50,557 nt of DNA from Candidatus Woesearchaeota archaeon (GTDB lineage: Archaea > Nanobdellota > Nanobdellia > Woesearchaeales > GW2011-AR9). The notes under the pieces were generated by a model. That model was not told the DNA's origin, did not search any database, and was given only the letters and a program-made list of their open reading frames with translations. Of the stretch, positions 33,667-50,263 are shown piece after piece. A program made the position numbers and the translations under genes. How positions within the stretch are numbered: the stretch's first letter is position 1; every line of letters starts with the position of its first letter. The stretch is from positions 1 to 50,557 of the forward strand of contig JAGVYN010000012.1 of assembly GCA_018303265.1 (NCBI GenBank). Reading direction: 5' to 3'.

Positions 33667-33689
33667 CAGTTATTTCATTACGAGAAATT

Positions 33690-37879: not shown

Positions 37880-38606
37880 GTTGTTGTGGTTTCATAATTG
37901 AAACACTCCGCTCTTTGTTGTTTATTACCGCAACTTCCCCTTGCGAGAGCGGTTTCCATCTCATTTTTTTCATCGCCGGAATTTTTTCTGAACTGATGAT
38001 GATGGCGTCTTTGCTTTTGCCGATGTGCATCGTGAAATAGAGGGGGTAGTTGTTCTCTCGCACGGCGACGATCGTTTGTTGAGGCGAGGCGAGAATGATA
38101 TTTGTTCCGGTGAGTTTGGTAAATTGCAGAAGAGTATTTCTCACGCTTTTTGCGGGATTTTTTGTATCCAGGTGAGTAAGAATGTTATAGAACAGCCGTT
38201 CTGAATCGGTCTCTCCTTTTGGCTTATATTTTCGGTCATAGTTAATTTTTTCGCTGATAAGCCCATTGTGGGAAAAGACAAATCTTCCTTCATGAAAAGG
38301 GTGGGTATTGCGCAGGGAAACACCACCGCTGTCCATCCCTCTGGCATGGATGAGTATGACGGAAGAAGTCACCTTGCGCAGAGAATTTATTTTTCGATCA
38401 TCATAGATTGCTTTCGTTGATTTGACAATTTTCCATGAACTTTTTTGCAAATAGGCAACTCCCCACCCATCCGAATGTTTCCAGCTGCCGAGCCCTTTCT
38501 TCTGATTAAGTTCATGGTGGGTTGTTTGGTCTTGCGCCATGAGTATCATGCTGTCAAGAAGAGTATTGGGATCAATATCCCCTAGAGCAATAAGCATTCG
38601 ACACAT
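37848..38606 (-). CDS. class II (Ntn) glutamine amidotransferase-like amidohydrolase, EgtC/YafJ type (paralog B)
   Basis: MCRMLIALG (start placed at 38606 so that Cys is residue 2), DGWGVAY, LIHARG...NTHPF, SHNGLI, ETDSERLF and IISSEKI. 34 of the first 53 residues are identical to paralog A by hand alignment. Confidence 0.75.
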   Translation of the reverse strand: MCRMLIALGDIDPNTLLDSMILMAQDQTTHHELNQKKGLGSWKHSDGWGVAYLQKSSWKIVKSTKAIYDDRKINSLRKVTSSVILIHARGMDSGGVSLRNTHPFHEGRFVFSHNGLISEKINYDRKYKPKGETDSERLFYNILTHLDTKNPAKSVRNTLLQFTKLTGTNIILASPQQTIVAVRENNYPLYFTMHIGKSKDAIIISSEKIPAMKKMRWKPLSQGEVAVINNKERSVSIMKPQQLVPVETKIHA

Positions 38607-38675
38607 TTGTAGTACCTTCAATTTTGCGCACTTTTCGCCTTGGAATATCTCTTGACTATTTTCTGTTGCGCCGGT

Positions 38676-40226
38676 TTAAGGTTTATAAGTAAATGGCTCT
38701 AACACAGCATGCAATGTTGCCGGTAAGATTTTTTCTCCTTTTTCCATGTTCGGCTGTTCCGTGTACGCAATCTTTCTCATGAGTTGGGCAGGCGTCGGCT
38801 CAGGTTGAATATTCTTAAAATAACCTTTTCCCTGGTACAACACGCCAGCTTTAGTTAGAACGGGATTGATAATTTCCTTTATATCTGTTTCGGTATGCCC
38901 GTATCTTTTAAGAACATCCACGGAAAGTTTTCCTAAGTATTCAAACAAGTCGGGAAACGATTTAATGGCGACAGGAGTTCCATTACGATATGGCCAAATG
39001 CATTTTTTATAAGAATGAGAATTATGAAGAGAACTTTCAGTCATGTTTCTCTCAACATATTGCGATGCTAATGGTTGAAGTGAATCTTTTTGCATTTCTT
39101 CAACTATTCCCTGGAGCATTGCCATCTGTGTCAAATTAAAAGCGGCCATTTCTTCCGCATTGCGCGGCATTTCATTCATTCGCAATTCAATGCCTATTCC
39201 TTTTGCATCCATGACATCTTTATATTTCAACTTGACGAACGGCCAACTATTTACTTCAGGAAAATCTTTTTCTTGACCAGCGACATCTTCCTCAGTGATA
39301 ACAATGTGCCCGTCGGCGGCGATGGTACCAAAATATTGAGCAATGGGAGAAGGAACACGAATTTTTATCAAAGCTTCATACATCTCTTGGTTAAACCATT
39401 GCGGGTTTTCGGTGTTTTCAATCATGGGTTCCAATGCTCGCCAACGGTTGGGTCGTCCTCGTTCAAAATCCTCTTGGGTAAATCCATACGTGGCAGGAGG
39501 ATTTAGATGTATTCTCGCGCTATCGTACATGGTTAGCTTTCCTTCGACTAATGGCGAGGAGGCGCTTACAGCAAACAGCAATGGTCCAAGTACGTACGCT
39601 GCATTATAATAAAGCTGCGTTGCGGAATGGGGAACTTTGATTGTCGTTTGGGTATTGGTAGCAAAACCAGCCCAGATATTGTTACGATAGGTTTGCGCGC
39701 TTCCATCAACAAAAGGGATTATTGCGTCTTGCGCTAAAGGAGAAAGCATCTCGCCGAAGGCATCAAATCGAGGACTCTTAAATAAGAATTTTGTTGCTTC
39801 TTCATTGTAAAGAGGATAACCTCCCATAAGAAGAGCAGTGGCGCCAAATTCCTGCGCGGCGTAGTGCAAAGGATTCAAGATATCTTTAATTCCACAGATA
39901 ACTTCGTCCAAAGAATCGTGTAGTCCAAATAATTTTTTTGGATTTGTTTTGACCTCGGCCTGGAAATTTACTTTCTCCCCGGTGATTACTCCTTTCCCTA
40001 GCACTTTTTCTAATTCTTCAAATATCGGAGCGGGGTTATTATGAGCATCAACTAATGTCGTTTCTATTTCTATACCTGCGTCTAAAATTTTTGGATCTTC
40101 ATGTTCTATTGGATAAATTTTTTGAAATCTATCGACAACAGATTGAATATATCGCTGGTTTATTTCGGAGGCAAACGCAAGTAGTTCAGAACGGTTCAGA
40201 ATCCTCCCTCGAATTTGTTCACCCAT
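38676..40226 (-). CDS. divergent glutamate-cysteine-ligase-superfamily carboxylate-amine ligase (ligase B)
   Basis: AGIEIETTLVD (E-x-E), NFQAEVKTNP and GIGIELRMNEMP follow the GCS/GS-like order. NTQTTIKVP sits where ligase A has HCH. 516 aa. Confidence 0.5.
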   Translation of the reverse strand: MGEQIRGRILNRSELLAFASEINQRYIQSVVDRFQKIYPIEHEDPKILDAGIEIETTLVDAHNNPAPIFEELEKVLGKGVITGEKVNFQAEVKTNPKKLFGLHDSLDEVICGIKDILNPLHYAAQEFGATALLMGGYPLYNEEATKFLFKSPRFDAFGEMLSPLAQDAIIPFVDGSAQTYRNNIWAGFATNTQTTIKVPHSATQLYYNAAYVLGPLLFAVSASSPLVEGKLTMYDSARIHLNPPATYGFTQEDFERGRPNRWRALEPMIENTENPQWFNQEMYEALIKIRVPSPIAQYFGTIAADGHIVITEEDVAGQEKDFPEVNSWPFVKLKYKDVMDAKGIGIELRMNEMPRNAEEMAAFNLTQMAMLQGIVEEMQKDSLQPLASQYVERNMTESSLHNSHSYKKCIWPYRNGTPVAIKSFPDLFEYLGKLSVDVLKRYGHTETDIKEIINPVLTKAGVLYQGKGYFKNIQPEPTPAQLMRKIAYTEQPNMEKGEKILPATLHAVLEPFTYKP

Positions 40227-40253
40227 CTTTTCTTATTTTGCCGATGAGGAGAA

Positions 40254-40262
40254 TTATTTAAA
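40254..40262 (-). promoter_or_regulatory. TATA-box candidate for ligase B operon
   Basis: TTTAAATAA (minus-strand sense) lies about 28 nt upstream of the ATG at 40226. Confidence 0.35.
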
Positions 40263-40526
40263 CCTTTCTTTTATATTAAAAAATTACCCTAAAATAGAAA
40301 AAGGTGCCATATTTTAATCTCTTTTAAAAAAAGAGCGTTATTTTTGTATGTGTTTTTATATGTGTTTAATATATTTTTATGAAAATTATGATTTTTCTGG
40401 TGATGGCTTGGAAAAATTAAATCTACAAAAAAAGTATGTGCTACGTATGAAAAACCAACAACTTTTTAAATAAACTCTTGTCTTAAGCACAAAATAAAGA
40501 ATAAATACGGTAATTCCTACATCAAA

Positions 40527-41231
40527 ATGTCTAAATCAACTACGAAAAAAGTAAGCAGGATCAAAACCAGGAAGAAAGTATGGTTTAAGATTTTTGCTCC
40601 ACAGGTTTTTGGGAACAAAGAAATTGGTGAAACATATCTTCCGGCAGCAGAAAATGCTCTGGGAAGATTGCTGAAGATTAGTTTGAAAGATATCACTGGC
40701 AATGTTAAAGACCAGAACGCGTATATTGGTTTTAAAATTGCAAAAGCGGAGGGTTCTGCTTTGCGAACTGAAGTGATAAGTTACCAGCTGACTCCTGCAT
40801 CCGTCAAAAGACTGGTTCGAAAAAATACGGCGCGCTTAGATGATTATTTTACATTTACAACAAAAGACAAAAAAAACGTTATCGTAAAAACCCTTCTTAT
40901 CACCTTAAACATAAGCAAGCGTTCCACAGAAGCCCGCTTGCGTAAAACATTGCAAGACTTACTTAGAGCAGAGATAAATACGGAAGATTTCACTACATTT
41001 TTAAGCAATGTTGTTACCAACAAAGTACAAGCTATTCTTAGAAAGAAACTTAATAAGATATATCCTCTTAAAGAATTGGCCATTCGTGTTGCTGTGCTAC
41101 AGCAGGGTACGGGAACGTCTAAAGAAGATGTTCTTGAAACGGCTCCTCAAGAAGAGCCTCGTGCAGAAGCAGTGCCCTTGGTTGAAGAAGCAAGCGTTGA
41201 AGAAACTGACGTTGAGGAAGCAGCACTTTAA
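40527..41231 (+). CDS. rps3ae: 30S ribosomal protein eS1 (S3Ae)
   Basis: KVWFKIFAPQVFGNKEIGETYLPAAENALGRLLKISLKDITGN. Acidic C-terminal tail. Confidence 0.9.
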   Translation: MSKSTTKKVSRIKTRKKVWFKIFAPQVFGNKEIGETYLPAAENALGRLLKISLKDITGNVKDQNAYIGFKIAKAEGSALRTEVISYQLTPASVKRLVRKNTARLDDYFTFTTKDKKNVIVKTLLITLNISKRSTEARLRKTLQDLLRAEINTEDFTTFLSNVVTNKVQAILRKKLNKIYPLKELAIRVAVLQQGTGTSKEDVLETAPQEEPRAEAVPLVEEASVEETDVEEAAL

Positions 41232-41250
41232 GCTTTTTTGTTCTATTTCC

Positions 41251-41850
41251 ATGAGATTTTTAACATTTACAGACTTGCACGAAGATAAAAGTACTCTGCA
41301 AGAGTTAGTCACGAGAGCAACAAAAGAAGATGTTGATTTTATTGTATGCTGCGGCGATATTTCTACATTGGGAAGAGGATTGCGAAACGTCCTCACCAAA
41401 TTTGCTGCCACGGGAAAACGATTTTATGTTATACCTGGGAATCATGAAGAAGCGGGAACGATGCTTGATGATGCCGTTGCCGATTTTCCCGGATGCATCA
41501 ATTTTCATACCAAGGCAATTAAAGTTGGTGATTATATTTTTCTGGGATATGGCGGCGGCGGGTTTTCTTTTGAAGATCCTGCCTTCCGTAAGATAGCGCG
41601 GGAGTGGTACGGCAAATACAAAGAAAAAAAGATCGTGCTGGTAACCCATCAGCCTCCATTCGGCACCAAACTTGATCTGCTGGGAGAGCGGCATGTAGGA
41701 AATAAAGATTTCCGAAAATTTATCGAAAGGGTTAAGCCTAAATTAGCGATTTCCGGCCATTTGCATGAAACAGTAGGAAGTGTTGATGCCATCGGCGAAA
41801 CAAAACTTGTAAATCCCGGCTGGGATGGAATGATTATTGAGTTGAACTGA
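41251..41850 (+). CDS. calcineurin-like metallophosphoesterase
   Basis: FTDLHED (DxH), CCGDIS (GD), PGNHEE (GNHE), VTHQPP and SGHLHE (GHxH). The ATG at 41251 is used because the upstream part of the track ORF overlaps eS1 out of frame. Confidence 0.8.
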   Translation: MRFLTFTDLHEDKSTLQELVTRATKEDVDFIVCCGDISTLGRGLRNVLTKFAATGKRFYVIPGNHEEAGTMLDDAVADFPGCINFHTKAIKVGDYIFLGYGGGGFSFEDPAFRKIAREWYGKYKEKKIVLVTHQPPFGTKLDLLGERHVGNKDFRKFIERVKPKLAISGHLHETVGSVDAIGETKLVNPGWDGMIIELN

Positions 41851-41920
41851 TTCGTCGTGCTGGTACTTTTAATTCCCATTTTTTTTCAATTTTAACACAT
41901 TTCAATTTTAACACCAATAC

Positions 41921-41929
41921 TTTTAAATA
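41921..41929 (+). promoter_or_regulatory. TATA-box candidate
   Basis: TTTTAAATA ends 24 nt before the ATG at 41953. Confidence 0.35.
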
Positions 41930-41952
41930 TAATTTTGATTTCCACAAAGAAC

Positions 41953-42750
41953 ATGAAACTTGCAACAAGACTCTTTTTTCTTTTCATGGTGCTTTTCATT
42001 GTGTCCTGTTCTTTTCCATCAGAAGAAAAAATAGAAACTAAACCTCAAGAGACTGTTCTTCCATCGTCAGAAATTGCGGAGAGTATTGCCGAGAGCAATG
42101 CGTCGGAAACCACTGAAATCCCGCTTCAAGAGACTCTGCCAGAACAGCAGCTGGATCCTGAAATAGAGGAACTTATTGCGAAAGGGCGAAATGCTGCAAA
42201 TTATAACTACTTTTTTTCCTCTCTTGTTCGAGATAATTATGGAATTTATACTGAAACATCGTATACTGTTTTTGTTAAAGAGGAAAAAACAAAAAAAGTA
42301 TATCTGAATCCTAAAAAATTACGGGGAGATATTTTTTATAATGAGATTTACTTGGATAATACGAAAAAGACAGCCATCGGTATTTGCACGAAAATAGGAA
42401 TTCTCTGTGAAAAGATTTTTGACAAAGCGTATGCTGTGGACTATCTTTCTGAGAAAATTGATGTGACTCCGGCGGAACTCCTTAAGGGTGTCGGTCTTAA
42501 TGCTGCGAAAGTTGGCGAAGAAGTTATTGACAATAGAAAAACCACCATCATTGAGTATACCAACGCAAAAGGACAGAAAGAAAGATTATCTCTCGACAAT
42601 CATTTTGGCTTGCCTCTGAAACAGATTATCTATGAAACTTCTGATGATCAGGAAATTATCTTGGAAACGAATAGATTTAGCAAATTTTCTGTGGGTAATG
42701 TTCTCACAAAAGAAGTCACCTTGCCCGAAAAATATCAAATTGTTGAGTAG
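41953..42750 (+). CDS. putative secreted lipoprotein
   Basis: MKLATRLFFLFMVLFIVSCSF is a signal peptide with a lipobox-like IVSC. An acidic linker follows. I prefer the ATG at 41953 to the TTG at 41935 because of the TATA spacing. Confidence 0.5.
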   Translation: MKLATRLFFLFMVLFIVSCSFPSEEKIETKPQETVLPSSEIAESIAESNASETTEIPLQETLPEQQLDPEIEELIAKGRNAANYNYFFSSLVRDNYGIYTETSYTVFVKEEKTKKVYLNPKKLRGDIFYNEIYLDNTKKTAIGICTKIGILCEKIFDKAYAVDYLSEKIDVTPAELLKGVGLNAAKVGEEVIDNRKTTIIEYTNAKGQKERLSLDNHFGLPLKQIIYETSDDQEIILETNRFSKFSVGNVLTKEVTLPEKYQIVE

Positions 42751-43084
42751 TTCTTGAATAAAAAAGTGGCCTATTTATTCTAAAATCCTTCCTAAAATTC
42801 CAGTTTTAGCTGACTGTTTTAACTGTGGGATACAGGCATAGCATTTTAAGGCTCATTAAGAAAAAGCTAACACTTTTTCTTCAACTCCGTTTCTCGTAGG
42901 GTTGCATAGTGAATTTGATGCGAGTATGAGCTCATATACCTTTTTCGCTAGAAAACGCATATTAGGGGTAAAATGGAGAGTGTGAGCTCTGAGATAAAAA
43001 GATTTTTCCATAGCATTGGTAGTGTTAGTGCAGAGATAGTAAGACACTACATAGATGTCTCAACCAGTTGGGAGAGAACAAAAC

Positions 43085-43111
43085 AAAAGAAGCTCCAATA
43101 GAGCTTCTTTT
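43085..43111. terminator. perfect 11-bp stem / 5-nt loop hairpin flanked by A/T runs (bidirectional terminator-like)
   Basis: AAAAGAAGCTC-CAATA-GAGCTTCTTTT lies immediately 3' of the minus-strand gene that ends at 43121. T-runs follow on both strands. Confidence 0.45.
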
Positions 43112-43120
43112 TCTAAAAAC

Positions 43121-44356
43121 TTATTCACCAAAATACATATTTCTTAATAATTTCAATGTATTATATTCATCAATTGATAATTTATCATCTTTAACCATCT
43201 TCCAACTTTTAGTTGCATATTTATTCATACAACTAAAAGCATTTGGAAGATTGAACTTGACCACAGATTGATTAAATCTTACCAATTCTTGGTTAAGTTC
43301 ATCTCTAATTCCTGTTTTACTTAAATCAACATTTCTTTCTTCAAGAGTTCTTCCCATTTGAACATATAATCTTGTAAGACCTTTTGTTTGTTGAAATAGT
43401 TGAGAGGGGTCAATAATCAAATCTCCTTGAATATTATGTTTAAGGAAGTATGCTCTTAATACTTTATTATGAACTCCATTAAACATTTCAGATTGATTTC
43501 CATCATCATTTTGCCATCTTAATTTCTTTTTATCAGAACCAACTAAAATACTATGAGTTACAATTCTTGTTGGTACGTCTTCTTGATTTAAGTAACACAA
43601 TGTGTAGTAGTTGAATTTTTTAACAACATCTCCACTTATTGAAGTTCTAATATCATATTCTCTATCCTTATTAATCAATGCGGGAAACATCATTGTAACA
43701 AATCTTGGGTCTAATTTAAAACCATAAATGCTCGTTGTAAATTCTCTATTCTTTTCTAATATTAAATCATATTCACTAGGAAGATTATCAATAAAATCTT
43801 CAAGTCTTTTCTTTGCACCAGATGGGAAAAATTCAATTCCTGCAATTTTTCTTTCAATATCTTCCCTATTAATATTTTTAAACATAGTTTCTCTTTGATG
43901 ATAGGTGGTATCTCTACCACAACTTCTACAAGATGAAATAGATGGGTCAGAACCAAATATATTGCCACAAGTAATACATTCATTAATATTTGTATTACCA
44001 ATATTAAATGTTTCTTGATATGATGTTCTCGCCAACTTTTCTAATTGTTCTTGAATTTGGTCATCTCTTAAACTACAATCAAAATCAAGATAATGTTGTT
44101 TCATCACTTCTTCTGCTCTTTTTATCTTTTCTGAAGTATATTGTGCAACATTTTCAGGATTTAATTCAAAACCATACTCTCTCATTTGTTTAACAAGTGG
44201 TTCTCCATTAATATTCCACAAAAATGGTGTATGAACATTAATTCCTGCAAATTTTCTTGCTTTTGAATAAAAATCTACAAGTGTAAGGTCATATACATTT
44301 CCCACACTCAAATTTCTTTTAATTTGAGTTGGAGCAATCAACACTAATTCTTTCAT
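43121..44356 (-). CDS. methionyl-tRNA-synthetase-like class I aaRS paralog lacking HIGH and KMSKS signatures
   Basis: Collinear with the MetRS catalytic core. PTQIKRNLSVGNVYDLTLVDFYSKARKFAGINV sits where PYANGxxHLGHxxxxxxADVxxRYxRxxGxxV would be. Zinc knuckle CITCGNIFGSDPSISSCRSCG. FVTMMFPALI sits where FHxxxWPAML would be. VTHSILVGSDKKKLRWQNDDGN sits where VHGxxxxxGxKMSKSxGN would be. LRAYFL sits where LRYYL would be. Confidence 0.5.
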   Translation of the reverse strand: MKELVLIAPTQIKRNLSVGNVYDLTLVDFYSKARKFAGINVHTPFLWNINGEPLVKQMREYGFELNPENVAQYTSEKIKRAEEVMKQHYLDFDCSLRDDQIQEQLEKLARTSYQETFNIGNTNINECITCGNIFGSDPSISSCRSCGRDTTYHQRETMFKNINREDIERKIAGIEFFPSGAKKRLEDFIDNLPSEYDLILEKNREFTTSIYGFKLDPRFVTMMFPALINKDREYDIRTSISGDVVKKFNYYTLCYLNQEDVPTRIVTHSILVGSDKKKLRWQNDDGNQSEMFNGVHNKVLRAYFLKHNIQGDLIIDPSQLFQQTKGLTRLYVQMGRTLEERNVDLSKTGIRDELNQELVRFNQSVVKFNLPNAFSCMNKYATKSWKMVKDDKLSIDEYNTLKLLRNMYFGE

Positions 44357-44360
44357 TTAT

Positions 44361-44609
44361 CTATTCTTCATAATTTATATAATCTAAAAATATCTTTTTA
44401 TCAAGATATGTCAAAAACTCATAAGCAACTTCAACATCTTCTAATGTAATATTTTCAGTTCTTTCCACTTTTATATGTAAAAAAATTTTAGGATTAATTG
44501 GTGGTTCAAATACATCATAAAATGTTTGCAATGCTGCCCTTTTATCTTTTGGATAAATTCCTCTTGATGCAAGTGCATATAAAGAACCATAGATACACCA
44601 TTTCATCAT
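44361..44609 (-). CDS. hypothetical protein (82 aa), co-oriented with and 4 nt upstream of the MetRS-like gene
   Basis: It shares the very AT-rich composition of its neighbour. No motif recognised. Confidence 0.4.
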   Translation of the reverse strand: MMKWCIYGSLYALASRGIYPKDKRAALQTFYDVFEPPINPKIFLHIKVERTENITLEDVEVAYEFLTYLDKKIFLDYINYEE

Positions 44610-44921
44610 AAGTATTTTATTTTCCTTATCATTAATATACTGCTAAAGTTTTAGGATTTACAATATTCTTGAAGAAATGGAGAAGAGATGTTAGATAGAA
44701 TCAATAAATATTTGGAGCGTTTGTTAAAAGTAACTTTTGTTACGACTGCCGAAGCTTCTCAATTGTCTGCTACCACCGTGGAAGAATGGAGCGCTTTGGG
44801 GGACTACCTGGATTTGACTCCTGAAGGAACCAAAAAATTATGAATCTGCGCAAACAAAATTTATTTAACGGGGTGAAAAATAAAGCCATAAAAAAGGAAT
44901 ACGAACGGTCGAGGCCGGAAT

Positions 44922-45713
44922 ATGAAGTATTGGAAAAAAAAGCATTCCACTTTGAATCGCATTATATTTAGGATTAATCTTTTGAAAAATAGCATAAAAG
45001 ATTTTTCGGTTTTTAAGAAAGTTCCAGCTTTTATAATAAGACAGTTTGGCCCAAATTTAGAAAGAGAATATGGAAAACTGACTATTTTACCGGATTTTTC
45101 AAAAAAGTTTGTATATGTGCCGCTTGGTTTTCAGCCGGAGCGCACTACCAGTCCGCAAGGGGATATGTTTGTTGATCAGATCTTAATGATTGAAACTATT
45201 TCCGCGTCTTTGCCTAAAGATTGGATTATTTATGTAAAAGAACATCCTTCTCAGTGGTGGTTAAGAAGTGGTATTCGTTATTCTTGCGCTCGTTATAAGG
45301 GGTATTATCGCCGAATTGCCAAAATAAAAAATGTTAAATTAGTTCCTATCACTACTAACACTTATAACTTAATTGATAAAGCGCAGGCAGTGGCTGTGGC
45401 GACGGGTACCGCTGGTTGGGAAGCGCTTCTCCGTTCAAAACCAACTTTAGCTTTCGGTTATCCATGGTACCGAGATTGCCCGGAATTGTTTAGGATAAAT
45501 AGCGTTGAATTATGTAAGTCCGCCCTTGATAAAATTAATAATGGTTGGAAAGTAAATCAACAAAAAATGATTTATTATTTGAAGTGTTTTGATAATGTTG
45601 CTTTACACGGCTCCCCGGAAGTTTTTGTCGCCAAGAAATCAAAGGTCAGTGAACAAGAAACTAGAGATAATATGTTCAAGGCCTTCGTGACAGAAGTGGA
45701 GAATTTACCTTAA
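44922..45713 (+). CDS. capsule/polysaccharide biosynthesis protein-like (KpsS/KpsC-type domain), possibly N-terminally truncated
   Basis: FVYVPLGFQPERTTSPQGDMFVDQ...YVKEHPSQW...VATGTAGWEALL resembles the C-terminal half of Capsule_synth-type enzymes. The reading frame is closed by a stop 30 nt upstream of the ATG. Confidence 0.4.
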   Translation: MKYWKKKHSTLNRIIFRINLLKNSIKDFSVFKKVPAFIIRQFGPNLEREYGKLTILPDFSKKFVYVPLGFQPERTTSPQGDMFVDQILMIETISASLPKDWIIYVKEHPSQWWLRSGIRYSCARYKGYYRRIAKIKNVKLVPITTNTYNLIDKAQAVAVATGTAGWEALLRSKPTLAFGYPWYRDCPELFRINSVELCKSALDKINNGWKVNQQKMIYYLKCFDNVALHGSPEVFVAKKSKVSEQETRDNMFKAFVTEVENLP

Positions 45714-45722
45714 AGATATATT

Positions 45723-46100
45723 ATGATTGCGAATAAAATTGATGAGAGTGTCGGGGTTGATATTGAGGATATCGGCAGGTTTAGGAAACTTGACCAAAAA
45801 AATAGTGGGGTTTTTTTGAAAAAGGTTTACACCAAAAACGAATTGGACTATTGTTTCTGGAAGGCCGTTCCGGCTCAGCATCTGGCTGTTAGGTTTGCTG
45901 GCAAAGAAGCTGTTTTAAAGGCGTTAAGCGGTTTAGGTTTGTCTCCTGTTGATTATAATACGATAGAAATTTTTAATAATGACAGAGGGGCGCCGCAAGT
46001 TAGATTTTGTGGGCATAAAAATTTTAAGAAGTTGGGTGTAAAGATAAGTTTGTCCCATTGTCGAGACAAGGCATTAGCTTTCGTTGTTATAAAAAAGTAA
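45723..46100 (+). CDS. acpS: holo-ACP synthase (AcpS-type 4'-phosphopantetheinyl transferase)
   Basis: VGVDIEDIGRF, FAGKEAVLKAL and KISLSH, in 125 aa. Confidence 0.8.
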   Translation: MIANKIDESVGVDIEDIGRFRKLDQKNSGVFLKKVYTKNELDYCFWKAVPAQHLAVRFAGKEAVLKALSGLGLSPVDYNTIEIFNNDRGAPQVRFCGHKNFKKLGVKISLSHCRDKALAFVVIKK

Positions 46101-46102
46101 TT

Positions 46103-46300
46103 ATGATAAGTAAAAAAGAAATAAAAAAAGAAATAAAAAAATTCTTCGCTACCGATTTAGATTCTTTCGCTTATCTACAATTGGTCTCTGACTTGGAAAA
46201 AAAATTTGAGGTAGAATTGACTATGGCGGAAGCGTTGACGGCCGATAGTGTGGAAAAATTCGCTAAAATTATCTGTCGCAAATTAAAGAAAAAATCATGA
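46103..46300 (+). CDS. acyl carrier protein
   Basis: 65 aa with DLDSFAYLQLVSDLEKKFEVEL (DSx phosphopantetheine-attachment motif). The ATG at 46103 lies 3 nt after the acpS stop. Confidence 0.7.
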   Translation: MISKKEIKKEIKKFFATDLDSFAYLQLVSDLEKKFEVELTMAEALTADSVEKFAKIICRKLKKKS

Positions 46301-47793
46301 AACTGGATTTTAAGAATTTTTCTCAGATTTTGAATTACTGGGCAGTTGAAACACCCGAAAAGATTTTTGTTACTGACATTCTGTCGGGTAAGAGCTGTTC
46401 TTACGCAGATTTTAACAAACTGGTAAATTCCACCACCAGATTTCTTAAGAAACATGGGGTTGGGCGAGGTGATATAGTTTCGCTTTGTTTGAGAAACTCT
46501 TTGGAATTTCTCGTCGCTTATTTTGCCACTATTCGTTTGGGCGCGATTATCAATCCAATTCCAATTTCAGTGGCAGATAAAGAACTGGCCGCCAATTTAG
46601 ATTTTTCGAAACCTAAACTATCGCTGTTGGAAGTTCCATCAACTAAAATTGCCAAGCGACACAAAATTTTTAGCGTTAAATTCCAAGGCAAAGGAGCATT
46701 TCTCAAGATTCTGAAAAATTTTTCCGACAAAAAACTCTCTATCAGTTTGGATGAAGATAAACCTGTCTGTTTGTATTACTCTTCTGGGACAACAGCCAAG
46801 CCGAAAGGTATAATTTTCTCGCACCGTGGTATCATTAATATCATTTCAGCAACTTGCCGGTGGTTTGGACACAATTCAAATAGCCGGCATTTGGCGATTT
46901 TGCCAATGGCCCACACTTCAGTAATGCATTATTCTGTGCTACCAGTTTTGTATGTCGGCGGTAGTTTTGTCTTTGCCGAGAATTTTATTAAGATTAGAAA
47001 GGATTTCTGGCGGATTATCAGAGATTACAAAGTGAACTATGTTCAAACTGTTCCAACGATTATTTTGATGATTTTAAGTATTACTTATTCTAATTATCAT
47101 CGTTCAAGATTGATTTTACCTTACATTGCTTGCGGTTCCGCTCCTTTGCCGGAGAAAAACAAAAAATTATTTGAGAATAGATTTGGTCTACGGTTAGCGA
47201 ATTTGTATGGTTTGTCCGAAGCCGGACACTTGGCTTCCGATTATCCTTTTGAAAAGGGGCAAAAGCCGGGCAGTATTGGTCGGCCATTGGACATTGTTGA
47301 CTTGAAAGTTTTTGATGACCAAGGGCGAGAAGCGCCAGTTGGTCAAACCGGCGAAATTGCGGTAAAGACCCCCGGTTTCTTTTTGGGTTATCACAAAGAC
47401 AAAAAACTTTATGAGTCCAGTTTTAAAAACGGTTATTTTTGTACTGGTGATTTAGCATGGAAAGACAATTCCAGTATTCTTTATTATGTTGGCCGCAAGA
47501 AAGATTTGATCATAAAAGGCGGAGTGAATATTTCTCCAAATTTAATTGATGAGGTATTGGTTAAACATCCGGCGGTGGCAGAGGCGGCCTCGGTTGGTAA
47601 ACCCGACGAATTATTCGGCGAAGTCGCAAAAAGCTTTGTGGTTTTGAAATTTGGTCGATTGGTTTCGCAAAAAGAACTTTTTGATTATTGCCGGAGAGAG
47701 CTGGGTGAATTTAAGTCGCCTAGCGAGATTGAATTTATCAAAGAAATTCCTAAAACCGCTTCGGGAAAGATTTTGAGGCGAAAATTAAAATGA
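46297..47793 (+). CDS. AMP-dependent acyl-CoA/acyl-ACP ligase (adenylate-forming enzyme)
   Basis: YYSSGTTAKPKG (AMP-binding signature), YGLSEAG, TGDLAWKD, GRKKDLIIKGGVNISP and PKTASGKILRRKL. Confidence 0.85.
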   Translation: MKLDFKNFSQILNYWAVETPEKIFVTDILSGKSCSYADFNKLVNSTTRFLKKHGVGRGDIVSLCLRNSLEFLVAYFATIRLGAIINPIPISVADKELAANLDFSKPKLSLLEVPSTKIAKRHKIFSVKFQGKGAFLKILKNFSDKKLSISLDEDKPVCLYYSSGTTAKPKGIIFSHRGIINIISATCRWFGHNSNSRHLAILPMAHTSVMHYSVLPVLYVGGSFVFAENFIKIRKDFWRIIRDYKVNYVQTVPTIILMILSITYSNYHRSRLILPYIACGSAPLPEKNKKLFENRFGLRLANLYGLSEAGHLASDYPFEKGQKPGSIGRPLDIVDLKVFDDQGREAPVGQTGEIAVKTPGFFLGYHKDKKLYESSFKNGYFCTGDLAWKDNSSILYYVGRKKDLIIKGGVNISPNLIDEVLVKHPAVAEAASVGKPDELFGEVAKSFVVLKFGRLVSQKELFDYCRRELGEFKSPSEIEFIKEIPKTASGKILRRKLK

Positions 47794-48780
47794 GGTCAAT
47801 TTATATTCAAAAACCAGGAACAATCAAGATCGTTGATGGTTTGAAGTTGCCGTCATTGCGGCGAGGCGAGGCCTTACTCAAGGTAAATTATATTGGTATC
47901 TGTGGTTCGGATGTCAGTATTTACTTGGGTGAAATGCCGATGGTTGTAGAGTTTCCAAGAATTATCGGGCATGAAATATCGGCAGAAATAATGAAAATAG
48001 GAAAGAACAAACAAGGATTCAGGGTGGGGAATTTAGTAACCGTTCTGCCTTATTTTAATTGTAAAAATTTTGGTCAGCGGCTTTGTCCGGCTTGCGCCGA
48101 AGGCCGCGGCTAGCGATTATATTGCGGTGCCCATTGAAAACCTAGTTTCTGGTGGCGATCTTTCCGCCAAGATGCTTACTTTAGCAGAGCCGTTCGCTGT
48201 CAGTTATCACGCTGTTAAGAAAGCTCGGCCGCGTGTTGGCGACAATGTTTTGATAATAGGTGCTGGGCCGATTGGTGTGGCGGCGATGACTGTCGTTAAA
48301 TTTTTTGGAGCTAAAGTTTATATTATTGATGTCAATAGACGACGATTGAAGTTAGCAAAACAACTTGGCGCAGACGGCGTTTTTAATCCCAACACCGATG
48401 ATTTTGAAAAGTTTGTTAAAAAAGCTACCTTTGGTAAGGGAATGGATTTATGCGTGGAGGCCTCAGGCAATTCGTTGGCAGCTATCAATTGTGTCAAAGC
48501 TCTTCGCCAGCCCAATCGGACGGTGGTGGCCATTGCTCATTCTAAAAAGCCACTCAATAATTTTTTCCAATCGGAATTGGTCAAACGCGAAGGTGTCTAT
48601 CGGGGCTCAAGAAACAGCGTTTTGTCCGATTTTCTGGAAGTAGTGAAAATTCTATCAAGGCGACCGGACATTGAAAAAATGATAACCAAGGTATATTCTG
48701 TTGCCGAAGCGCCGCAGGCATTCAAAGATTTAACAAATAGTGATGGCAAATTACATTTGAAATCACTATTAAAATTTTAA
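47790..48780 (+). pseudogene. zinc-dependent medium-chain dehydrogenase (Tdh/sorbitol-DH-like), internally deleted and frameshifted
   Basis: The N-terminal ORF carries GICGSDVSIYLG...PRIIGHEISAEI and CPACAEGRG, then a TAG at 48111. The +1-frame ORF resumes at DYIAVP...LAEPFAVSYHAV...LIIGAGPIGV. The expected 15-20 residues between these (fourth structural-zinc Cys to GGFA) are absent. Confidence 0.6.
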
Positions 48781-48785
48781 AGATT

Positions 48786-49598
48786 ATGATTTCATCATTT
48801 CAACCACTATATAAAGCGAATGGCAAAGAGATTTTTTCCAGCGATATCATTGCCGCCTTGGGAAAAGTCGGAATAAAAAATGGCGACACGATTTTTGTCC
48901 ATTCTGATGTTTCCGTTTTTGGAAAATTGGCGTTTCCTCTTGGCCGTGAATTGTTGCTCGGCGCATTAGTCGAAGTTTTAAAAAGAGCTGTTGGAAGAGA
49001 GGGAACTCTAATTATGCCGACTTTTACCTATAGTTTTTGCAAAGGTGAAATTTATGATATTGATAAAAGCCGGTCAACGGTAGGCGCGTTGACGGAATTC
49101 TTCAGGAATCAGCCCGGGGTCAAAAGAAATTTTCAACCGATTTTTTCGGTGGCGGCTTGGGGCAAGAATAAGGCGAATTATTTGAAGACAGGCAAAGATT
49201 CTTCCGGTAAGGATTCAATCTTTGATAAATTATTGAAAGGCAAAGGAAAAATCGTTTTTTTTGGCGCCTCGTTTCAGTCGTGCACCTTTCTTCATTTTGT
49301 GGAACAAACTCAGGGGGTGCCCTATCGTCACCTAAAAACTTTCAGGGGTTGGATTAAAAATAAACAAGAAAAATATCGGGACGAGTGTGTTTTTCTGGTT
49401 CGCAATCTAAATCAAGAGATAATCAAAGACACTTCAAAGTTAGAGAAACATCTCAACCGAAAAAAGTTAATCAAAAGGGTTGGCTTGGGGACGGGAGAAA
49501 TTTTGGCGGTTAATGTGACGGATTTGTTTCGTGAAGCGACAAGAATGCTCAAACGGAACGCTTACTATTTTCTTAAAGGTAAACCTAATGAGAAATAA
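48786..49598 (+). CDS. AAC(3)-family (aminoglycoside 3-N-acetyltransferase-like) N-acyltransferase
   Basis: GDTIFVHSDVSVFGKL, GTLIMPTFTYSF and STVGALTEFFR. Confidence 0.7.
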   Translation: MISSFQPLYKANGKEIFSSDIIAALGKVGIKNGDTIFVHSDVSVFGKLAFPLGRELLLGALVEVLKRAVGREGTLIMPTFTYSFCKGEIYDIDKSRSTVGALTEFFRNQPGVKRNFQPIFSVAAWGKNKANYLKTGKDSSGKDSIFDKLLKGKGKIVFFGASFQSCTFLHFVEQTQGVPYRHLKTFRGWIKNKQEKYRDECVFLVRNLNQEIIKDTSKLEKHLNRKKLIKRVGLGTGEILAVNVTDLFREATRMLKRNAYYFLKGKPNEK

Positions 49599-50256
49599 TT
49601 TAATAAATTCATATCACTCTAAACTGGTTGCGGACCAAGAAAAAACCAACAAGGTATTTTTGAGTCAAAGAGTTTTTATGACCGTGAACCGATTCTTGGA
49701 ACTTTTCACTGGCCAGACACTCAGTGGGAGAATTTTGGATTTAGGTTGCGGTGATGGCAGTTTTGTTGATTATTGCAATAATCATAACTTAGACGCTAAA
49801 GGCGTTGATATCGCTGACGGGATTGATTTTGAATCTGACAAGTTGCCTTATAGAGACAATCAGTTTAGTTTTGTTTTTATGGGTTCGGTTTTGGAACACC
49901 TTAACAATCCGTCAAACATTTTGAATGAAGTGAAAAGAGTTTTGGTAAAAGGAGGTGTGTTGATTGTTATCACTCCTAATATTGACCGAGTCAAGTTTCA
50001 TTTCTATGACGACCCGACCCATGTTCGGCCTTACAATCCGACAAACATCTCTCGGTTGATGGAAATGTTTGGTTTAAAAAGAATAGCCATCGGTTTGTGG
50101 ACAGTGGGTAAATCTTCTTTTGTTTGGAAATGGCCATTGGAGTTGCAGTTTCTCTGTGGTCGATTGTTGCCTTTTGCCGGCTTGAACAAACAAGCGCCAA
50201 GTTTTTTGAGAGGTAAATCAAAAACGATGCTTTGCGTTTTTAGGAAAGAAAAATAA
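49588..50256 (+). CDS. class I SAM-dependent methyltransferase
   Basis: ILDLGCGDGSF (motif I), FVFMGSVLEHL and GGVLIVITPN. I take the ATG at 49588, which overlaps the AAC(3) gene by 11 nt. Confidence 0.75.
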   Translation: MRNNLINSYHSKLVADQEKTNKVFLSQRVFMTVNRFLELFTGQTLSGRILDLGCGDGSFVDYCNNHNLDAKGVDIADGIDFESDKLPYRDNQFSFVFMGSVLEHLNNPSNILNEVKRVLVKGGVLIVITPNIDRVKFHFYDDPTHVRPYNPTNISRLMEMFGLKRIAIGLWTVGKSSFVWKWPLELQFLCGRLLPFAGLNKQAPSFLRGKSKTMLCVFRKEK

Positions 50257-50263
50257 AATTGAG

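What the first reader, a model, noticed from the sequence alone, without database searches (positions are those of the whole stretch)
42751..44921. AT-rich island carrying a MetRS-like class I aaRS paralog with degraded HIGH/KMSKS motifs
The 43121-44609 gene pair is visibly far more AT-rich than its surroundings. I hand-counted 10/60 G+C for 43121-43180 and 17/60 for 43321-43380, against 26/60 for 36301-36360 in ligase A.

The 411-aa protein is collinear with the MetRS catalytic core. It has the Rossmann first half, the CxxC...CxxC zinc knuckle, an FPAL segment, an LRAYFL segment and the start of the helical domain. HIGH is replaced by LSVGN and KMSKS by DKKKLRW. It is also too short to carry a full anticodon-binding domain. 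Canonical methionine activation is therefore unlikely, and a repurposed function (ligand or tRNA binding, or new chemistry) is plausible.

The gene is preceded by a co-transcribed 82-aa gene and followed by a perfect hairpin. It sits exactly at the junction between the archaeal core genes and a bacterial-style glycan cluster whose first gene looks truncated. That is the kind of position where mobile or defence-type cargo inserts. I recognise no integrase, tRNA or convincing flanking repeat.
Basis: partly seen in the sequence, partly recalled or inferred. Interest (0 to 1): 0.7.

Follow-up and report, generated by a model that had tools for sequence, protein, structure and literature searches.

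The report
Cut-off mobile cassette with MetRS-like enzyme
The AT-rich patch is real and encodes a conserved, uncharacterised methionyl-tRNA-synthetase-shaped protein, but it is only the tail of a four-gene mobile cassette, cut off here because this contig wrongly joins an archaeal genome to DNA of an unrelated bacterium.

Summary
Observation confirmed. Window 43121-44638 has 27.5% G+C against 39.8% for the rest, and it is the lowest 1.5-kb stretch in the window. The 411-aa protein has a MetRS-type class Ia fold (AF2 pLDDT 91; Foldseek E 1e-17). HIGH is replaced by [S/G]-V-G-N and KMSKS by x-K-L-R-W. These replacements are invariant in a small family under purifying selection, so they are not decay. 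They also do not prove loss of ATP use, because bacterial TrpRS uses TIGN.

The context was misread. The "82-aa gene" is the C-terminal third of a 250-aa ANT/kanamycin-nucleotidyltransferase-like partner. In 15 other contigs that carry the identical 411-aa protein, the NTase is complete. There it forms a 3.9-kb AT-rich cassette (alpha/beta-hydrolase, class II aldolase, NTase, aaRS-like) between cbf5/truB and a 265-aa gene, flanked by 69-bp direct repeats.

The window breaks at 44638/44639. After 283 orphan bases comes DNA 94-99.6% identical (protein level) to Candidatus Buchananbacteria, a CPR bacterium. The missing NTase residues 1-160 end another Woesearchaeota contig. The "junction" is therefore most likely an assembly chimera.

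The cassette occurs at different sites in bacterial (probably CPR) contigs and DPANN archaea. Its function is unknown. My best guess is a non-translational, MshC-like small-molecule ligase that works with the NTase.

The parts
43121..44356 (-). 411-aa class Ia aaRS-like protein with a MetRS fold. HIGH is replaced by L-S-V-G-N (residues 16-20). The Zn knuckle is C127/C130/C143/C146. KMSKS is replaced by K277-K278-L279-R280-W281. The helical C-terminal domain is short (residues 317-409).
   Evidence: ORF. Family alignment A1. AF2 pLDDT 91.2. Foldseek top hit in PDB is MetRS 7wpi (E 1.4e-17, TMq 0.68); top hit in BFVD is a giant-virus MetRS (E 4.4e-17). hhalign against MetRS gives probability 98.4%.
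44361..44638 (-). 3' fragment of the ANT/KNTase-like nucleotidyltransferase partner gene, codons 159-250 of 250. The annotated 82-aa ORF 44361..44609 starts at an internal Met. The catalytic Pol-beta domain is absent.
   Evidence: Alignment to full-length partners. blastn homology to L005, L007 and L008 ends exactly at 44638. Codon mapping.
44638..44639 (.). Breakpoint. Left of it the sequence is 99.95% identical to the sister contig L008. Right of it the sequence is unrelated.
   Evidence: P0162 (NTase residues 1-160, partial) lies at the end of another NCBI Woesearchaeota contig.
44639..44921 (.). Orphan 283-bp filler between the two genomes' DNA. Its 51-aa ORF (44688..44843) is a singleton in the protein collection.
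   Evidence: No homology to the NTase or to the Buchananbacteria capsule gene. Singleton cluster. No Pfam hit.
44922..45713 (+). 5'-truncated capsule-polysaccharide (KpsS/KpsC-like) gene. It corresponds to residues 217-479 of a 479-aa Ca. Buchananbacteria protein and is not part of the archaeal locus.
   Evidence: 98.9-99.6% aa identity to P0251, P0252 and P0254. Cluster names and contig counts. Pfam PF05159.
43085..43111 (-). 12-bp stem / 3-nt loop hairpin followed by a T-rich run, immediately after the aaRS-like stop codon. It lies in host-like G+C DNA and may be the original cbf5/truB terminator displaced by the insertion.
   Evidence: G+C 0.367 for 42843-43120. The 20-nt string TAAGTTTTTAGAAAAAGAAG is shared with the sequence after the truB stop codon in L008.
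43104..43118 (-). 15-mer TTTTAGAAAAAGAAG, a cassette-junction motif. It occurs once in the window and three times in every complete sister contig: after truB, in the spacer between the aldolase and NTase genes, and after the aaRS-like gene.
42774..42842 (.). Surviving copy of the 69-bp direct repeat that flanks the complete cassette in sister contigs. The second copy lies just upstream of the hydrolase gene, 3973 bp away.

Best explanation
SHOWN.
- Window 43121-44638 is the last 1.5 kb of a roughly 3.9-kb, AT-rich, horizontally acquired four-gene cassette.
- The genes are an alpha/beta-hydrolase (235 aa), a class II aldolase/epimerase (213 aa), an ANT/kanamycin-nucleotidyltransferase-like Pol-beta NTase (250 aa) and a MetRS-fold class Ia aaRS-like protein (411 aa).
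- In the natural Woesearchaeota population the cassette sits between cbf5/truB and a 265-aa gene. It is bracketed by 69-bp direct repeats and a recurring 15-mer.
- In this contig the cassette is cut inside the NTase gene at 44638. There it abuts 283 orphan bases and then Ca. Buchananbacteria (CPR bacterium) DNA.
- This is most likely an assembly chimera (about 85%), not biology. So the '82-aa gene', the truncated glycan gene and the 'junction' are artefacts.
- The 411-aa protein itself is intact. It belongs to a small family (about 30-40 clusters at 50% identity among 1.8 billion representatives) found in bacterial (probably CPR) contigs and DPANN archaea. The family is always directly downstream of the NTase and often overlaps it. 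It is usually followed by the hydrolase plus an aldolase or a NUDIX gene.

INFERRED mechanism (about 35-40%).
- The protein is not a translational MetRS. It is a non-translational ligase of the MshC type.
- It keeps the nucleoside-binding elements of the class I site: G242-D243, H268-G, and a TIGN-like S-V-G-N with a basic K..R loop.
- It has lost the alpha-amino-binding Asp (now N48), the Met-pocket residues and most of the anticodon-binding domain.
- It would therefore activate or bind an acyl or amino-acid-like substrate as an adenylate and join it to a small-molecule (probably sugar-like) acceptor. The same metabolite would be nucleotidylylated by the ANT-like partner and further processed by the esterase and the aldolase or NUDIX enzyme.
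- The window's copy, lacking the NTase catalytic domain only through misassembly, tells nothing about loss of function.
For: Composition.

Fold: AF2 pLDDT 91.2 and pTM 0.90. Foldseek gives MetRS at E 1e-17 in PDB and BFVD. hhalign gives probability 98.4-98.6% to MetRS and to mini class Ia synthetases. HMMER gives collinear weak hits to IleRS, LeuRS and ValRS.

Family conservation: invariant N20, N48, four Cys, G242, D243, H268, K278 and W281; dN/dS 0.22.

Cassette synteny in 9 independent genomic contexts.

Cassette AT-rich relative to its flanks in three bacterial contigs and in the sister contig L008.

NTase partner: profile hit to ANT(4') at E 1e-6. AF2 pLDDT 91, with Foldseek top hits AAD(9), ANT(4') and AadA.

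Truncation and chimera:
- blastn identity of 99.95% ends at 44638.
- All 15 contigs with the identical 411-aa protein carry the intact 250-aa NTase and the truB side.
- NTase residues 1-160 lie as a 'partial' protein at the end of another NCBI Woesearchaeota contig.
- The right-hand proteins are 94-99.6% identical to Ca. Buchananbacteria proteins. The capsule gene there is 479 aa on 13 or more contigs, and 263 aa only here.
- The right-hand segment has the lowest tetranucleotide correlation with the rest of the window.

Repeats.

TIGN as a functional HIGH variant: PMC10201369.

Precedent for class I paralogues acting as small-molecule or peptide ligases: PMC2922099.
Against: - The mechanism is inference from residues and gene neighbours only. 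No substrate is identified.
- The alignment register at the KMSKS loop differs by one residue between HMMER/IleRS (Lys to Trp) and MetRS-spaced hhalign (Lys to Arg).
- N48 at the amino-binding Asp position and the non-canonical motifs could equally mean that adenylate formation is lost.
- The aldolase and hydrolase are not universal: each is missing in one or two loci, and a NUDIX gene replaces the aldolase in L015.
- I could not prove that the 14,123-bp contig carrying the NTase N-terminus comes from the same assembly as the window.
- A very recent inter-domain transfer that created the junction is not formally excluded without reads.
Confidence: 0.75

Rival explanations
1. Split-ligase or transfer-only enzyme. 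The aaRS-like protein has lost amino-acid activation (HIGH and KMSKS changed, Asp to Asn). It only binds an adenylylated intermediate made by the tightly coupled Pol-beta NTase, or an aminoacyl-tRNA as cyclodipeptide synthases do, and it catalyses the transfer step.
For: - The signature residues that handle the PPi leaving group are replaced, while the ribose-binding G-D and H-G elements are kept.
- The NTase and aaRS-like genes are adjacent in every locus, overlapping in most (4 nt apart in the window's lineage and in L005).
- CDPSs set the precedent of class I-derived enzymes without HIGH and KMSKS that use aa-tRNA (PMC3105412; PMC2922099).
Against: - Pol-beta NTases of the ANT type make O-nucleotidyl phosphodiesters, not acyl-adenylates.
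- SVGN resembles the functional TIGN, and a basic residue is retained in the KMSKS-like loop, so ATP use may persist.
- No tRNA-related gene is conserved in the cassette.
Confidence: 0.15
2. Selfish or conflict module: a toxin-antitoxin or anti-phage system. An MNT-like NTase modifies or neutralises the aaRS-like protein, or modifies tRNA ends. The aaRS-like protein acts as a tRNA-binding effector or decoy.
For: - The cassette is AT-rich, moves between bacteria and archaea, inserts at different housekeeping loci and carries no mobility genes.
- The NTase N-domain weakly matches MntA and PADLOC candidate MNT profiles, and Foldseek also hits Hailong HalB.
- Overlapping two-gene cores are typical of TA pairs.
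Against: - The aaRS-like, hydrolase and aldolase proteins have no significant PADLOC match.
- There is no HEPN partner.
- The NTase is a two-domain, 250-aa ANT/KNTase-type enzyme rather than a minimal MNT.
- Metabolic-type accessory genes (aldolase/epimerase, esterase, NUDIX) are conserved in the operon.
- No copies were found on viral contigs.
Confidence: 0.12
3. The junction is real. A recent inter-domain transfer placed a Buchananbacteria glycan/ACP cluster into the cassette of one Woesearchaeota strain, deleting the NTase 5' half.
For: - DPANN genomes carry many bacterial genes.
- G+C of the right-hand segment (0.37-0.40) is close to that of the host.
- The contig was deposited as continuous sequence.
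Against: - Fifteen other contigs from ten or more samples show the intact arrangement, and none shows this junction.
- The Buchananbacteria genes are 94-99.6% identical to the bacterial copies, and the truncated 263-aa capsule protein exists on this contig only.
- There are two joints with a 283-bp orphan piece between them.
- The missing NTase half sits at the end of another Woesearchaeota contig.
- A simple deletion would remove cbf5 and the ribosomal protein genes seen next to the cassette.
Confidence: 0.12
4. It is a divergent but genuine translational MetRS (or other class Ia synthetase) of a reduced archaeon.
For: MetRS is the best structural match. One family member passes the Pfam MetRS threshold (P0007, 27.1 bits against a 20.1 cut-off).
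Against: - Identity to MetRS is only 11-15%.
- The HIGH motif, the KMSKS motif, the amino-binding Asp and the Met-pocket residues are not conserved.
- Only four helices remain of the anticodon-binding domain.
- The gene is patchy: found in 2 of 185,579 species representatives.
- It lies in a foreign AT-rich cassette with non-translation genes.
Confidence: 0.02

Closest known systems
Methionyl-tRNA synthetase (class Ia aaRS; e.g. PDB 7wpi, 1pfu, 1a8h; Fadolivirus MetRS)
   Same: Same overall fold. This includes the Rossmann core, the connective-peptide Zn knuckle with CxxC...CxxC, the stem-contact region and the first helices of the anticodon-binding bundle (Foldseek E 1e-17, TMq 0.63-0.75; hhalign probability 98.4%). 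The spacing between the H-G element and the KMSKS-equivalent loop is the same.
   Different: - Identity is only 11-15%.
- HIGH is replaced by [S/G]-V-G-N and KMSKS by x-K-L-R-W.
- The Asp of GTDEHG is replaced by Asn.
- The Met-pocket Tyr and His are not conserved.
- The protein is about 100-140 residues shorter at the C-terminus.
- It is encoded in a mobile cassette with an NTase, not as a housekeeping gene.
MshC (CysRS-derived Cys:GlcN-Ins ligase) and the paralogous MetRS family of Aravind et al. 2010 (PMC2922099)
   Same: These are class I synthetase paralogues of roughly 400 aa (MshC's size is from my own knowledge). They are recruited to non-ribosomal ligation of an amino acid to a small molecule and are encoded in pathway operons. 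This is the logic I propose for the family here.
   Different: - Those families keep intact adenylation residues. For the MetRS paralogue the paper states this; for MshC it rests on my own knowledge.
- The MetRS paralogue is strictly linked to a cupin and a lysine N6-monooxygenase.
- Here the signatures are altered and the partners are an ANT-like NTase, an alpha/beta-hydrolase and a class II aldolase or NUDIX enzyme.
Cyclodipeptide synthases (CDPS)
   Same: They are class I aaRS-derived enzymes that lack canonical HIGH and KMSKS and work outside translation.
   Different: CDPSs derive from the class Ic (TyrRS/TrpRS) core, are smaller, have no Zn knuckle or helical C-domain, and use aa-tRNAs. 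The family here has class Ia MetRS-like architecture.
Aminoglycoside O-nucleotidyltransferases ANT(4')/KNTase, ANT(9), ANT(3'')(9) AadA (for the partner whose tail is the '82-aa gene')
   Same: Two-domain architecture of about 250 aa: an N-terminal Pol-beta NTase with G-S...D-x-D and a C-terminal helical domain. Profile E is 1e-6 to KNTase. The Foldseek top hits are all ANTs (TM 0.4-0.6).
   Different: - Identity is only 10-14%.
- The family has its own invariant FWHNNR motif.
- No evidence exists for an aminoglycoside substrate.
- It is always coupled to the aaRS-like gene.
- The window retains only the helical tail.

Membership tests
Canonical MetRS / class Ia aminoacyl-tRNA synthetase | Rossmann-fold catalytic core with class Ia (MetRS-like) topology and a CP Zn knuckle | tested here: met
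   AF2 and Foldseek. hhalign. Four invariant Cys.
Canonical MetRS / class Ia aminoacyl-tRNA synthetase | HIGH signature (H-x-G-H) | tested here: not met
   The aligned positions are S17-V18-G19-N20. The first position is S or G, and N20 is invariant in 19 sequences. The motif resembles TrpRS TIGN.
Canonical MetRS / class Ia aminoacyl-tRNA synthetase | KMSKS signature | tested here: not met
   The loop reads K277-K278-L279-R280-W281, with K278 and W281 invariant. The register is ambiguous by one residue.
Canonical MetRS / class Ia aminoacyl-tRNA synthetase | Asp that binds the substrate alpha-amino group (MetRS GTDEHG / IleRS GWDCHG) | tested here: not met
   Invariant N48 in W-N-I-N-G aligns to that Asp in the IleRS alignment. 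The hhalign register against MetRS is shifted by one residue there.
Canonical MetRS / class Ia aminoacyl-tRNA synthetase | Full anticodon-binding helical domain | tested here: not met
   The protein is 411 aa, with only four helices after residue 317. Foldseek TM normalised to MetRS is 0.5-0.6.
Canonical MetRS / class Ia aminoacyl-tRNA synthetase | Passes curated family thresholds (Pfam PF09334/PF00133; NCBIfam) | tested here: not met
   The window protein has no aaRS Pfam hit. Its best NCBIfam hit is ValRS at 23 bits against a 738-bit cut-off. One relative, P0007, passes PF09334 (27.1 against 20.1).
Canonical MetRS / class Ia aminoacyl-tRNA synthetase | ATP-PPi exchange with Met and charging of tRNA-Met | not testable with these tools
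   Needs biochemistry.
Non-translational class I ligase paralogues (MshC; paralogous MetRS of PMC2922099) | Class I catalytic domain with reduced or absent anticodon-binding domain, encoded in a conserved non-translation operon | tested here: met
   Operon synteny.
Non-translational class I ligase paralogues (MshC; paralogous MetRS of PMC2922099) | Intact adenylation residues (HIGH and KMSKS) | tested here: not met
   The paper states that the residues are intact in the paralogous MetRS.
Non-translational class I ligase paralogues (MshC; paralogous MetRS of PMC2922099) | Strict association with a cupin and a lysine N6-monooxygenase (paralogous MetRS system) | tested here: not met
   No such genes lie in the cassette of any of the loci examined. 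L003 has an unrelated cupin gene about 6 kb upstream. The cassette partners are the NTase, hydrolase, aldolase or NUDIX.
ANT/KNTase-like nucleotidyltransferase (the 82-aa ORF) | N-terminal Pol-beta NTase domain with G-S...D-x-D | tested here: not met
   Absent from the window, where homology starts at codon 159. Present in all sister contigs and relatives.
ANT/KNTase-like nucleotidyltransferase (the 82-aa ORF) | C-terminal helical domain of the two-domain ANT architecture | tested here: met
   The 82 aa align to residues 170-250 of the partner. These are helical in the AF2 model, whose top structural matches are ANTs.
Genomic island / horizontally acquired cassette | Compositional deviation from the host | tested here: met
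Genomic island / horizontally acquired cassette | Flanking direct repeats | tested here: met
   A 69-bp direct repeat (97% identical, 3973 bp apart) occurs in all spanning sister contigs. The window keeps one copy. A recurring 15-mer is also present.
Genomic island / horizontally acquired cassette | Integrase/recombinase or tRNA target | tested here: not met
   No tRNA gene. No recombinase in the cassette or its flanks.
Genomic island / horizontally acquired cassette | Patchy distribution and different insertion sites in different genomes | tested here: met
   Bacterial and DPANN contexts all differ. Found in only 2 of 185,579 species representatives.
Known anti-phage defence or TA systems (MNT-HEPN, PADLOC models) | Match to a defence-system protein model, or a HEPN partner | tested here: not met
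   PADLOC gives only weak generic MNT-domain hits for the NTase and nothing significant for the other three proteins.

The most novel reading that the evidence does not exclude
The ANT-like nucleotidyltransferase and the MetRS-fold protein form an obligate two-protein enzyme. A Pol-beta NTase supplies the nucleotidyl activation. The synthetase scaffold has lost its PPi-handling signatures and carries out only the transfer step, onto a small molecule or a tRNA 3' end. This would be a new way of dividing aaRS-type chemistry. It is spread as a mobile cassette between bacteria (probably CPR) and DPANN archaea.
Probability: 0.12. Interest if true: 0.85.

Novelty: new variant of a known kind. Interest (0 to 1): 0.5.

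Why it matters
There are two separate points.

First, a data-quality point. This deposited 50.5-kb 'archaeal' contig is very probably an archaeon/CPR-bacterium chimera from position 44639 onward. Any inference of inter-domain gene transfer, of a truncated partner gene or of an insertion hotspot drawn from it would be wrong.

Second, the biology. The gene belongs to an undescribed, strongly conserved family of MetRS-shaped proteins. Their class I signature motifs have been rewritten rather than lost. The family is always coupled to an aminoglycoside-nucleotidyltransferase-like enzyme, within a small AT-rich cassette that has moved between ultra-small bacteria and archaea.

Synthetase paralogues have repeatedly turned out to be new ligases (MshC, cyclodipeptide synthases). 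This family is a clean, testable candidate for another such recruitment. It may also be a trait that episymbiotic microbes exchange.

Tried and rejected
- Pfam, NCBIfam and PADLOC on the 411-aa protein gave only sub-threshold hits: zinc-finger domains, ValRS at 23 bits, Csm3 at E 0.03.
- Plain phmmer against PDB gave only a marginal LeuRS hit at the HIGH region. The profile search and structure prediction were needed.
- No tRNA gene and no Rfam family in 42600-45000. The 375-nt region downstream of the gene folds no better than shuffled sequence (z -0.78), so there is no case for an ncRNA.
- Promoter-like sites occur at the chance level.
- Short repeats within 42500-45300 look like chance matches in AT-rich DNA. 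The real flanking repeat was only found by comparison with sister contigs.
- The viral contig scan found no relative.
- The GTDB genome scan found only two loci and the metagenome scan only five.
- Exact look-ups of P0162 and of the ACPS protein as encoding contigs failed. Cluster look-ups replaced them.
- I tested whether the cassette is unusually conserved between strains (window against L007). Divergence along the host backbone is patchy, so no inference is possible.
- I considered a simple deletion as the origin of the junction. I rejected it because it would remove cbf5 and ribosomal protein genes.
- I considered the aldolase as MtnB (methionine salvage). I rejected it because the best matches are the L-ribulose-5-P 4-epimerase and fuculose-aldolase subfamilies, all below cut-off.
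- Literature searches for this family or for an NTase + aaRS-like pairing found nothing.


Full report

Yes for composition. G+C in 500-bp windows drops to 0.26-0.29 at 43001-44500, against about 0.40 elsewhere.

The 1518 bases at 43121-44638 have 27.5% G+C, against 39.8% for the rest. The lowest 1518-bp window of the whole sequence starts at 43101, about 3.8 sd below the mean. Third-position G+C is 0.15 and 0.13 for the two ORFs, against 0.32-0.43 for twelve other genes. The segment has the lowest tetranucleotide correlation with the host (0.81).

The AT-rich part is narrower than the finding's span. The flanks 42843-43120 and 44639-44921 have host-like G+C of 0.37-0.38.

The ORFs are as described: 411 aa at 43121..44356(-) and 82 aa at 44361..44609(-). 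The hairpin has a 12-bp stem and a 3-nt loop followed by a T-rich run, at 43111..43085.

The window is archaeal up to this point. It encodes fibrillarin, Nop5 and ribosomal protein S3Ae.

**2. What the 411-aa protein is**

Curated libraries do not recognise it. It does have 18 full-length relatives at 39-83% identity in the 5.8-billion-protein collection. An exhaustive profile search of 1.84 billion representatives found 88 proteins at E<=1e-3 and 29 at E<=1e-30. The family is real but rare. Only 2 of 185,579 GTDB species representatives carry it, and both are DPANN MAGs.

The alignment has 57% mean column identity and 61 invariant columns. dN/dS against the 83%-identical relative is about 0.22.

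An AlphaFold2 model from this alignment is confident (pLDDT 91.2, pTM 0.90).
- Its best matches in the PDB are MetRS structures (E 1.4e-17, TMq 0.63-0.70, 11-15% identity). The naturally CP1-less Mycoplasma LeuRS follows.
- In the viral library a giant-virus MetRS leads by five orders of magnitude (E 4.4e-17, TMq 0.75).
- Profile-profile alignment gives probability 98.4% to MetRS and 98.6% to a group of motif-intact mini class Ia synthetases.
- HMMER profile hits to IleRS, LeuRS and ValRS are weak but collinear. They cover the HIGH region, the 'P..R...W..PDWcISRQR' region and the KMSKS region.

**3. The motifs**

*HIGH.* It aligns to S17-V18-G19-N20. The first position is S or G, and N20 is invariant.

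*KMSKS.* The loop reads D-K-K-K-L-R-W.
- With the H-G-to-loop spacing of MetRS and of the 'intermediate' relatives, KMSKS corresponds to K277-K278-L279-R280-W281. The second Lys then becomes a more than 90% conserved Arg.
- With the IleRS alignment it corresponds to K278-L-R-W-Q, and the Lys becomes an invariant Trp.
- The register is therefore uncertain by one residue.

*Amino-binding Asp.* The Asp that binds the substrate's alpha-amino group in IleRS (GWDCHG) and MetRS (GTDEHG) aligns to the invariant N48 of W-N-I-N-G.

*Met-pocket positions.* The positions I take, from my own knowledge of E. coli MetRS, to be the Met-pocket Tyr and His are not conserved. The Tyr falls in a deletion and the His aligns to D/N249.

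*Retained elements.* These are G242-D243 (the G-x-D that, from established knowledge of class I enzymes, contacts the ribose), H268-G and the four Zn-knuckle cysteines.

*C-terminal domain.* After residue 317 only four helices remain.

*What follows.* The protein is not a housekeeping MetRS, and methionine is unlikely to be its ligand. However, the replacements are family-wide invariants, not decay. They also do not show that ATP chemistry is lost. Bacterial TrpRS uses TIGN in place of HIGH (PMC10201369), and a basic residue may persist in the loop.

More distant relatives of about 400 aa form a graded series. At one end are forms with intact LHIGH, KMSKS and DWSISR, which hit Pfam tRNA-synt_1 at E 1e-46 to 1e-56. 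In between are HxGN/T with K[IM]S[KR]Y. At the other end is this family.

**4. The '82-aa gene' and the real gene neighbourhood**

In every relative's locus the aaRS-like gene is immediately preceded, and often overlapped, by a gene of about 250 aa with a Pol-beta nucleotidyltransferase domain.

The window's 82 residues align to the last 82 residues of that protein, at 51% identity or more. In-frame homology continues upstream to codon 159 and then stops.

The partner family has 55 hits of about 245-258 aa. It matches kanamycin nucleotidyltransferase ANT(4') by profile at E 1e-6. Its AF2 model (pLDDT 91.0) matches AAD(9), ANT(4') and AadA best, followed by Hailong HalB and the MNT antitoxins. 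It is thus a two-domain ANT-type enzyme. The window keeps only part of the helical domain.

Downstream genes in relatives are:
- an alpha/beta-hydrolase of 224-241 aa, present in most loci;
- a class II aldolase/epimerase of 201-218 aa. It is closest to the L-ribulose-5-P 4-epimerase and fuculose-aldolase subfamilies, below cut-off, and is not MtnB;
- a fusion of the two (447-449 aa) in two bacterial contigs;
- a NUDIX gene in place of the aldolase in a 40%-identical member.

The hosts differ.
- Contigs with DNA polymerase I, RuvC, FtsK, Mur ligase, FtsA/FtsZ and HrcA-GrpE-DnaK are bacterial. That they are probably CPR is my inference.
- Others are DPANN archaea: Ainarchaeum and Nanoarchaeia by their record names, and the Woesearchaeota lineage here.

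The insertion site differs in each genome. In the three bacterial contigs with G+C-richer backbones the cassette is also an AT-rich island: 0.27-0.34 against 0.40-0.50. This is a horizontally mobile cassette shared across the two domains. It was not found on viral contigs.

**5. The native locus of this very gene**

The identical 411-aa protein occurs on 15 other contigs from at least ten samples. All show the same arrangement:

cbf5/truB - hydrolase (235 aa) - aldolase (213 aa) - 282-bp spacer - NTase (250 aa, complete) - aaRS-like - 265-aa gene (reverse) - metallophosphoesterase - S3Ae.

The window is 99.95% identical to one of them (L008) over 38657-44638 and 97.6% identical to another (L007) over 33583-44638. 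Both alignments end abruptly at 44638.

In the complete locus all four genes have 24-28% G+C, against 37-43% in the flanks.

The cassette is bracketed by 69-bp direct repeats, 97% identical and 3973 bp apart. These are present in every contig that spans both ends. The window retains one copy at 42774-42842.

A 15-mer, TTTTAGAAAAAGAAG, occurs exactly three times per complete locus: directly after the truB stop codon, in the spacer, and directly after the aaRS-like stop codon. It occurs only once in the 50-kb window. The 20 nt TAAGTTTTTAGAAAAAGAAG are identical after both stop codons.

Gene order here (hydrolase-aldolase-NTase-aaRS) is a circular permutation of the order in the other genomes (NTase-aaRS-hydrolase-aldolase). 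Together with the repeated junction motif, this suggests rearrangement through a tandem or circular intermediate. That is inference; no recombinase is present.

The hairpin after the gene lies in host-like DNA. It may be the displaced truB terminator, which is also inference.

**6. The junction at 44638 is most likely an assembly chimera**

Several lines of evidence point the same way.
- None of the 15 sister contigs has this junction.
- The truncated 81/82-aa product is recorded on one contig only, of 50,557 bp, which is this window.
- An NCBI protein, MBS3127416.1, is annotated 'nucleotidyltransferase domain-containing protein, partial [Candidatus Woesearchaeota archaeon]'. It is identical to NTase residues 1-160 and sits on a 14,123-bp contig. 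It ends within 5 nt of the window's breakpoint at codon 159. The gene is therefore split between two deposited contigs.
- To the right, the proteins encoded at 44922-49598 are 94.4-99.6% identical to proteins of Candidatus Buchananbacteria MAGs (OGY44180.1 and OGY44181.1) and of 10-17 further contigs.
- The capsule-biosynthesis protein is 479 aa in all of those. Only residues 217-479 are present here, and only on this contig.
- The intervening 283 bp (44639-44921) match neither side, and their 51-aa ORF is a singleton.
- The right-hand segment has the lowest tetranucleotide correlation with the rest of the window among host-G+C segments (0.86-0.89 against 0.92-0.97).

A genuine, very recent inter-domain transfer is not formally excluded without reads. 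I put it near 12%. A simple deletion is implausible because it would remove cbf5 and neighbouring ribosomal protein genes.

**7. How it most likely works**

Shown:
- a MetRS-fold protein with rewritten signatures;
- obligatory adjacency to an ANT-type NTase;
- frequent esterase and aldolase or NUDIX partners;
- purifying selection;
- inter-domain mobility.

Inferred, at about 35-40%: a non-translational ligase of the MshC type. It would form or bind an adenylate of a non-methionine acyl or amino-acid-like substrate. It would join this to a small, probably sugar-like acceptor that the ANT-like enzyme also modifies.

Rivals:
- a transfer-only or two-protein enzyme, or a CDPS-like aa-tRNA user (about 15%);
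- a TA or defence-like conflict module (about 12%);
- a true synthetase (about 2%).

PADLOC gave no support for a defence role. Literature searches found no description of this family or pairing. The nearest published analogue is the paralogous MetRS linked to a cupin and a lysine N6-monooxygenase, which keeps intact catalytic residues (PMC2922099).

**8. Verdict**

The protein-level interpretation is largely right but overstated on loss of activity. The context-level interpretation is wrong for this contig. The family and its cassette are a new variant of a known kind, namely class I synthetase paralogues recruited outside translation. Interest is moderate.

Noticed in passing
window 44922-50557: The whole right-hand end of the window encodes proteins 94-99.6% identical to Candidatus Buchananbacteria (CPR bacterium) proteins. 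These include the capsule-synthesis fragment, a holo-ACP synthase, an ACP, an AMP-dependent ligase and an aminoglycoside 3-N-acetyltransferase-like protein. (The split Zn-ADH and the methyltransferase in the same stretch were not compared with Buchananbacteria.) The deposited 'archaeal' contig is probably an inter-domain chimera.
   Followed up: yes
window 47790-48780: A zinc alcohol dehydrogenase is split into two overlapping ORFs: an ADH_N part (107 aa, 47790..48113) and an ADH_zinc_N part (236 aa, 48070..48780). This suggests a frameshift, either a pseudogene or a sequence error, in the bacterial segment.
   Followed up: no
proteins P0064, P0071, P0076, P0080, P0094, P0095 and P0052-P0058, P0062, P0067: The profile search also recovered proteins of roughly 375-495 aa that look like class Ia synthetases without an editing domain. 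Some have intact LHIGH, KMSKS and DWSISR (Pfam tRNA-synt_1 at E 1e-46 to 1e-56). Others have intermediate motifs (HxGN/T with K[IM]S[KR]Y). This is a graded series of mini class Ia-like proteins whose hosts and contexts I could not examine.
   Followed up: partly
L008 1118-1132, 2721-2735, 4833-4847 (and the same in L007, L011, L021-L030); window 43104-43118: The 15-mer TTTTAGAAAAAGAAG marks the three module boundaries of the complete cassette. Gene order is circularly permuted relative to other genomes. This hints at a tandem or circular intermediate, with no recombinase in sight.
   Followed up: partly
window 34958-40226: There are two consecutive sets of GCS2-type glutamate-cysteine-ligase-like and GATase_4 genes, one of them with a DUF3335/C39-like gene. 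In the sister contig a glutaredoxin gene lies nearby. This looks like a duplicated low-molecular-weight thiol or gamma-glutamyl pathway. 38083-38582 is only 81% identical to L007, while its neighbours are 99-100% identical.
   Followed up: no
window 1865-2863: This is a second low-G+C stretch (0.28-0.32 over 2001-3000). It encodes a 332-aa protein with two Lrp/AsnC-type winged-helix domains, next to the fibrillarin and Nop5 genes.
   Followed up: no
L016-L018 2569-3342 and 13524-14578: The DPANN contig that carries a 57%-identical cassette also encodes a second 257-aa Pol-beta NTase (a possible paralogue of the partner), a VapBC pair and an NTase plus 161-aa pair. NTase modules are abundant around the cassette in that genome.
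   Followed up: no
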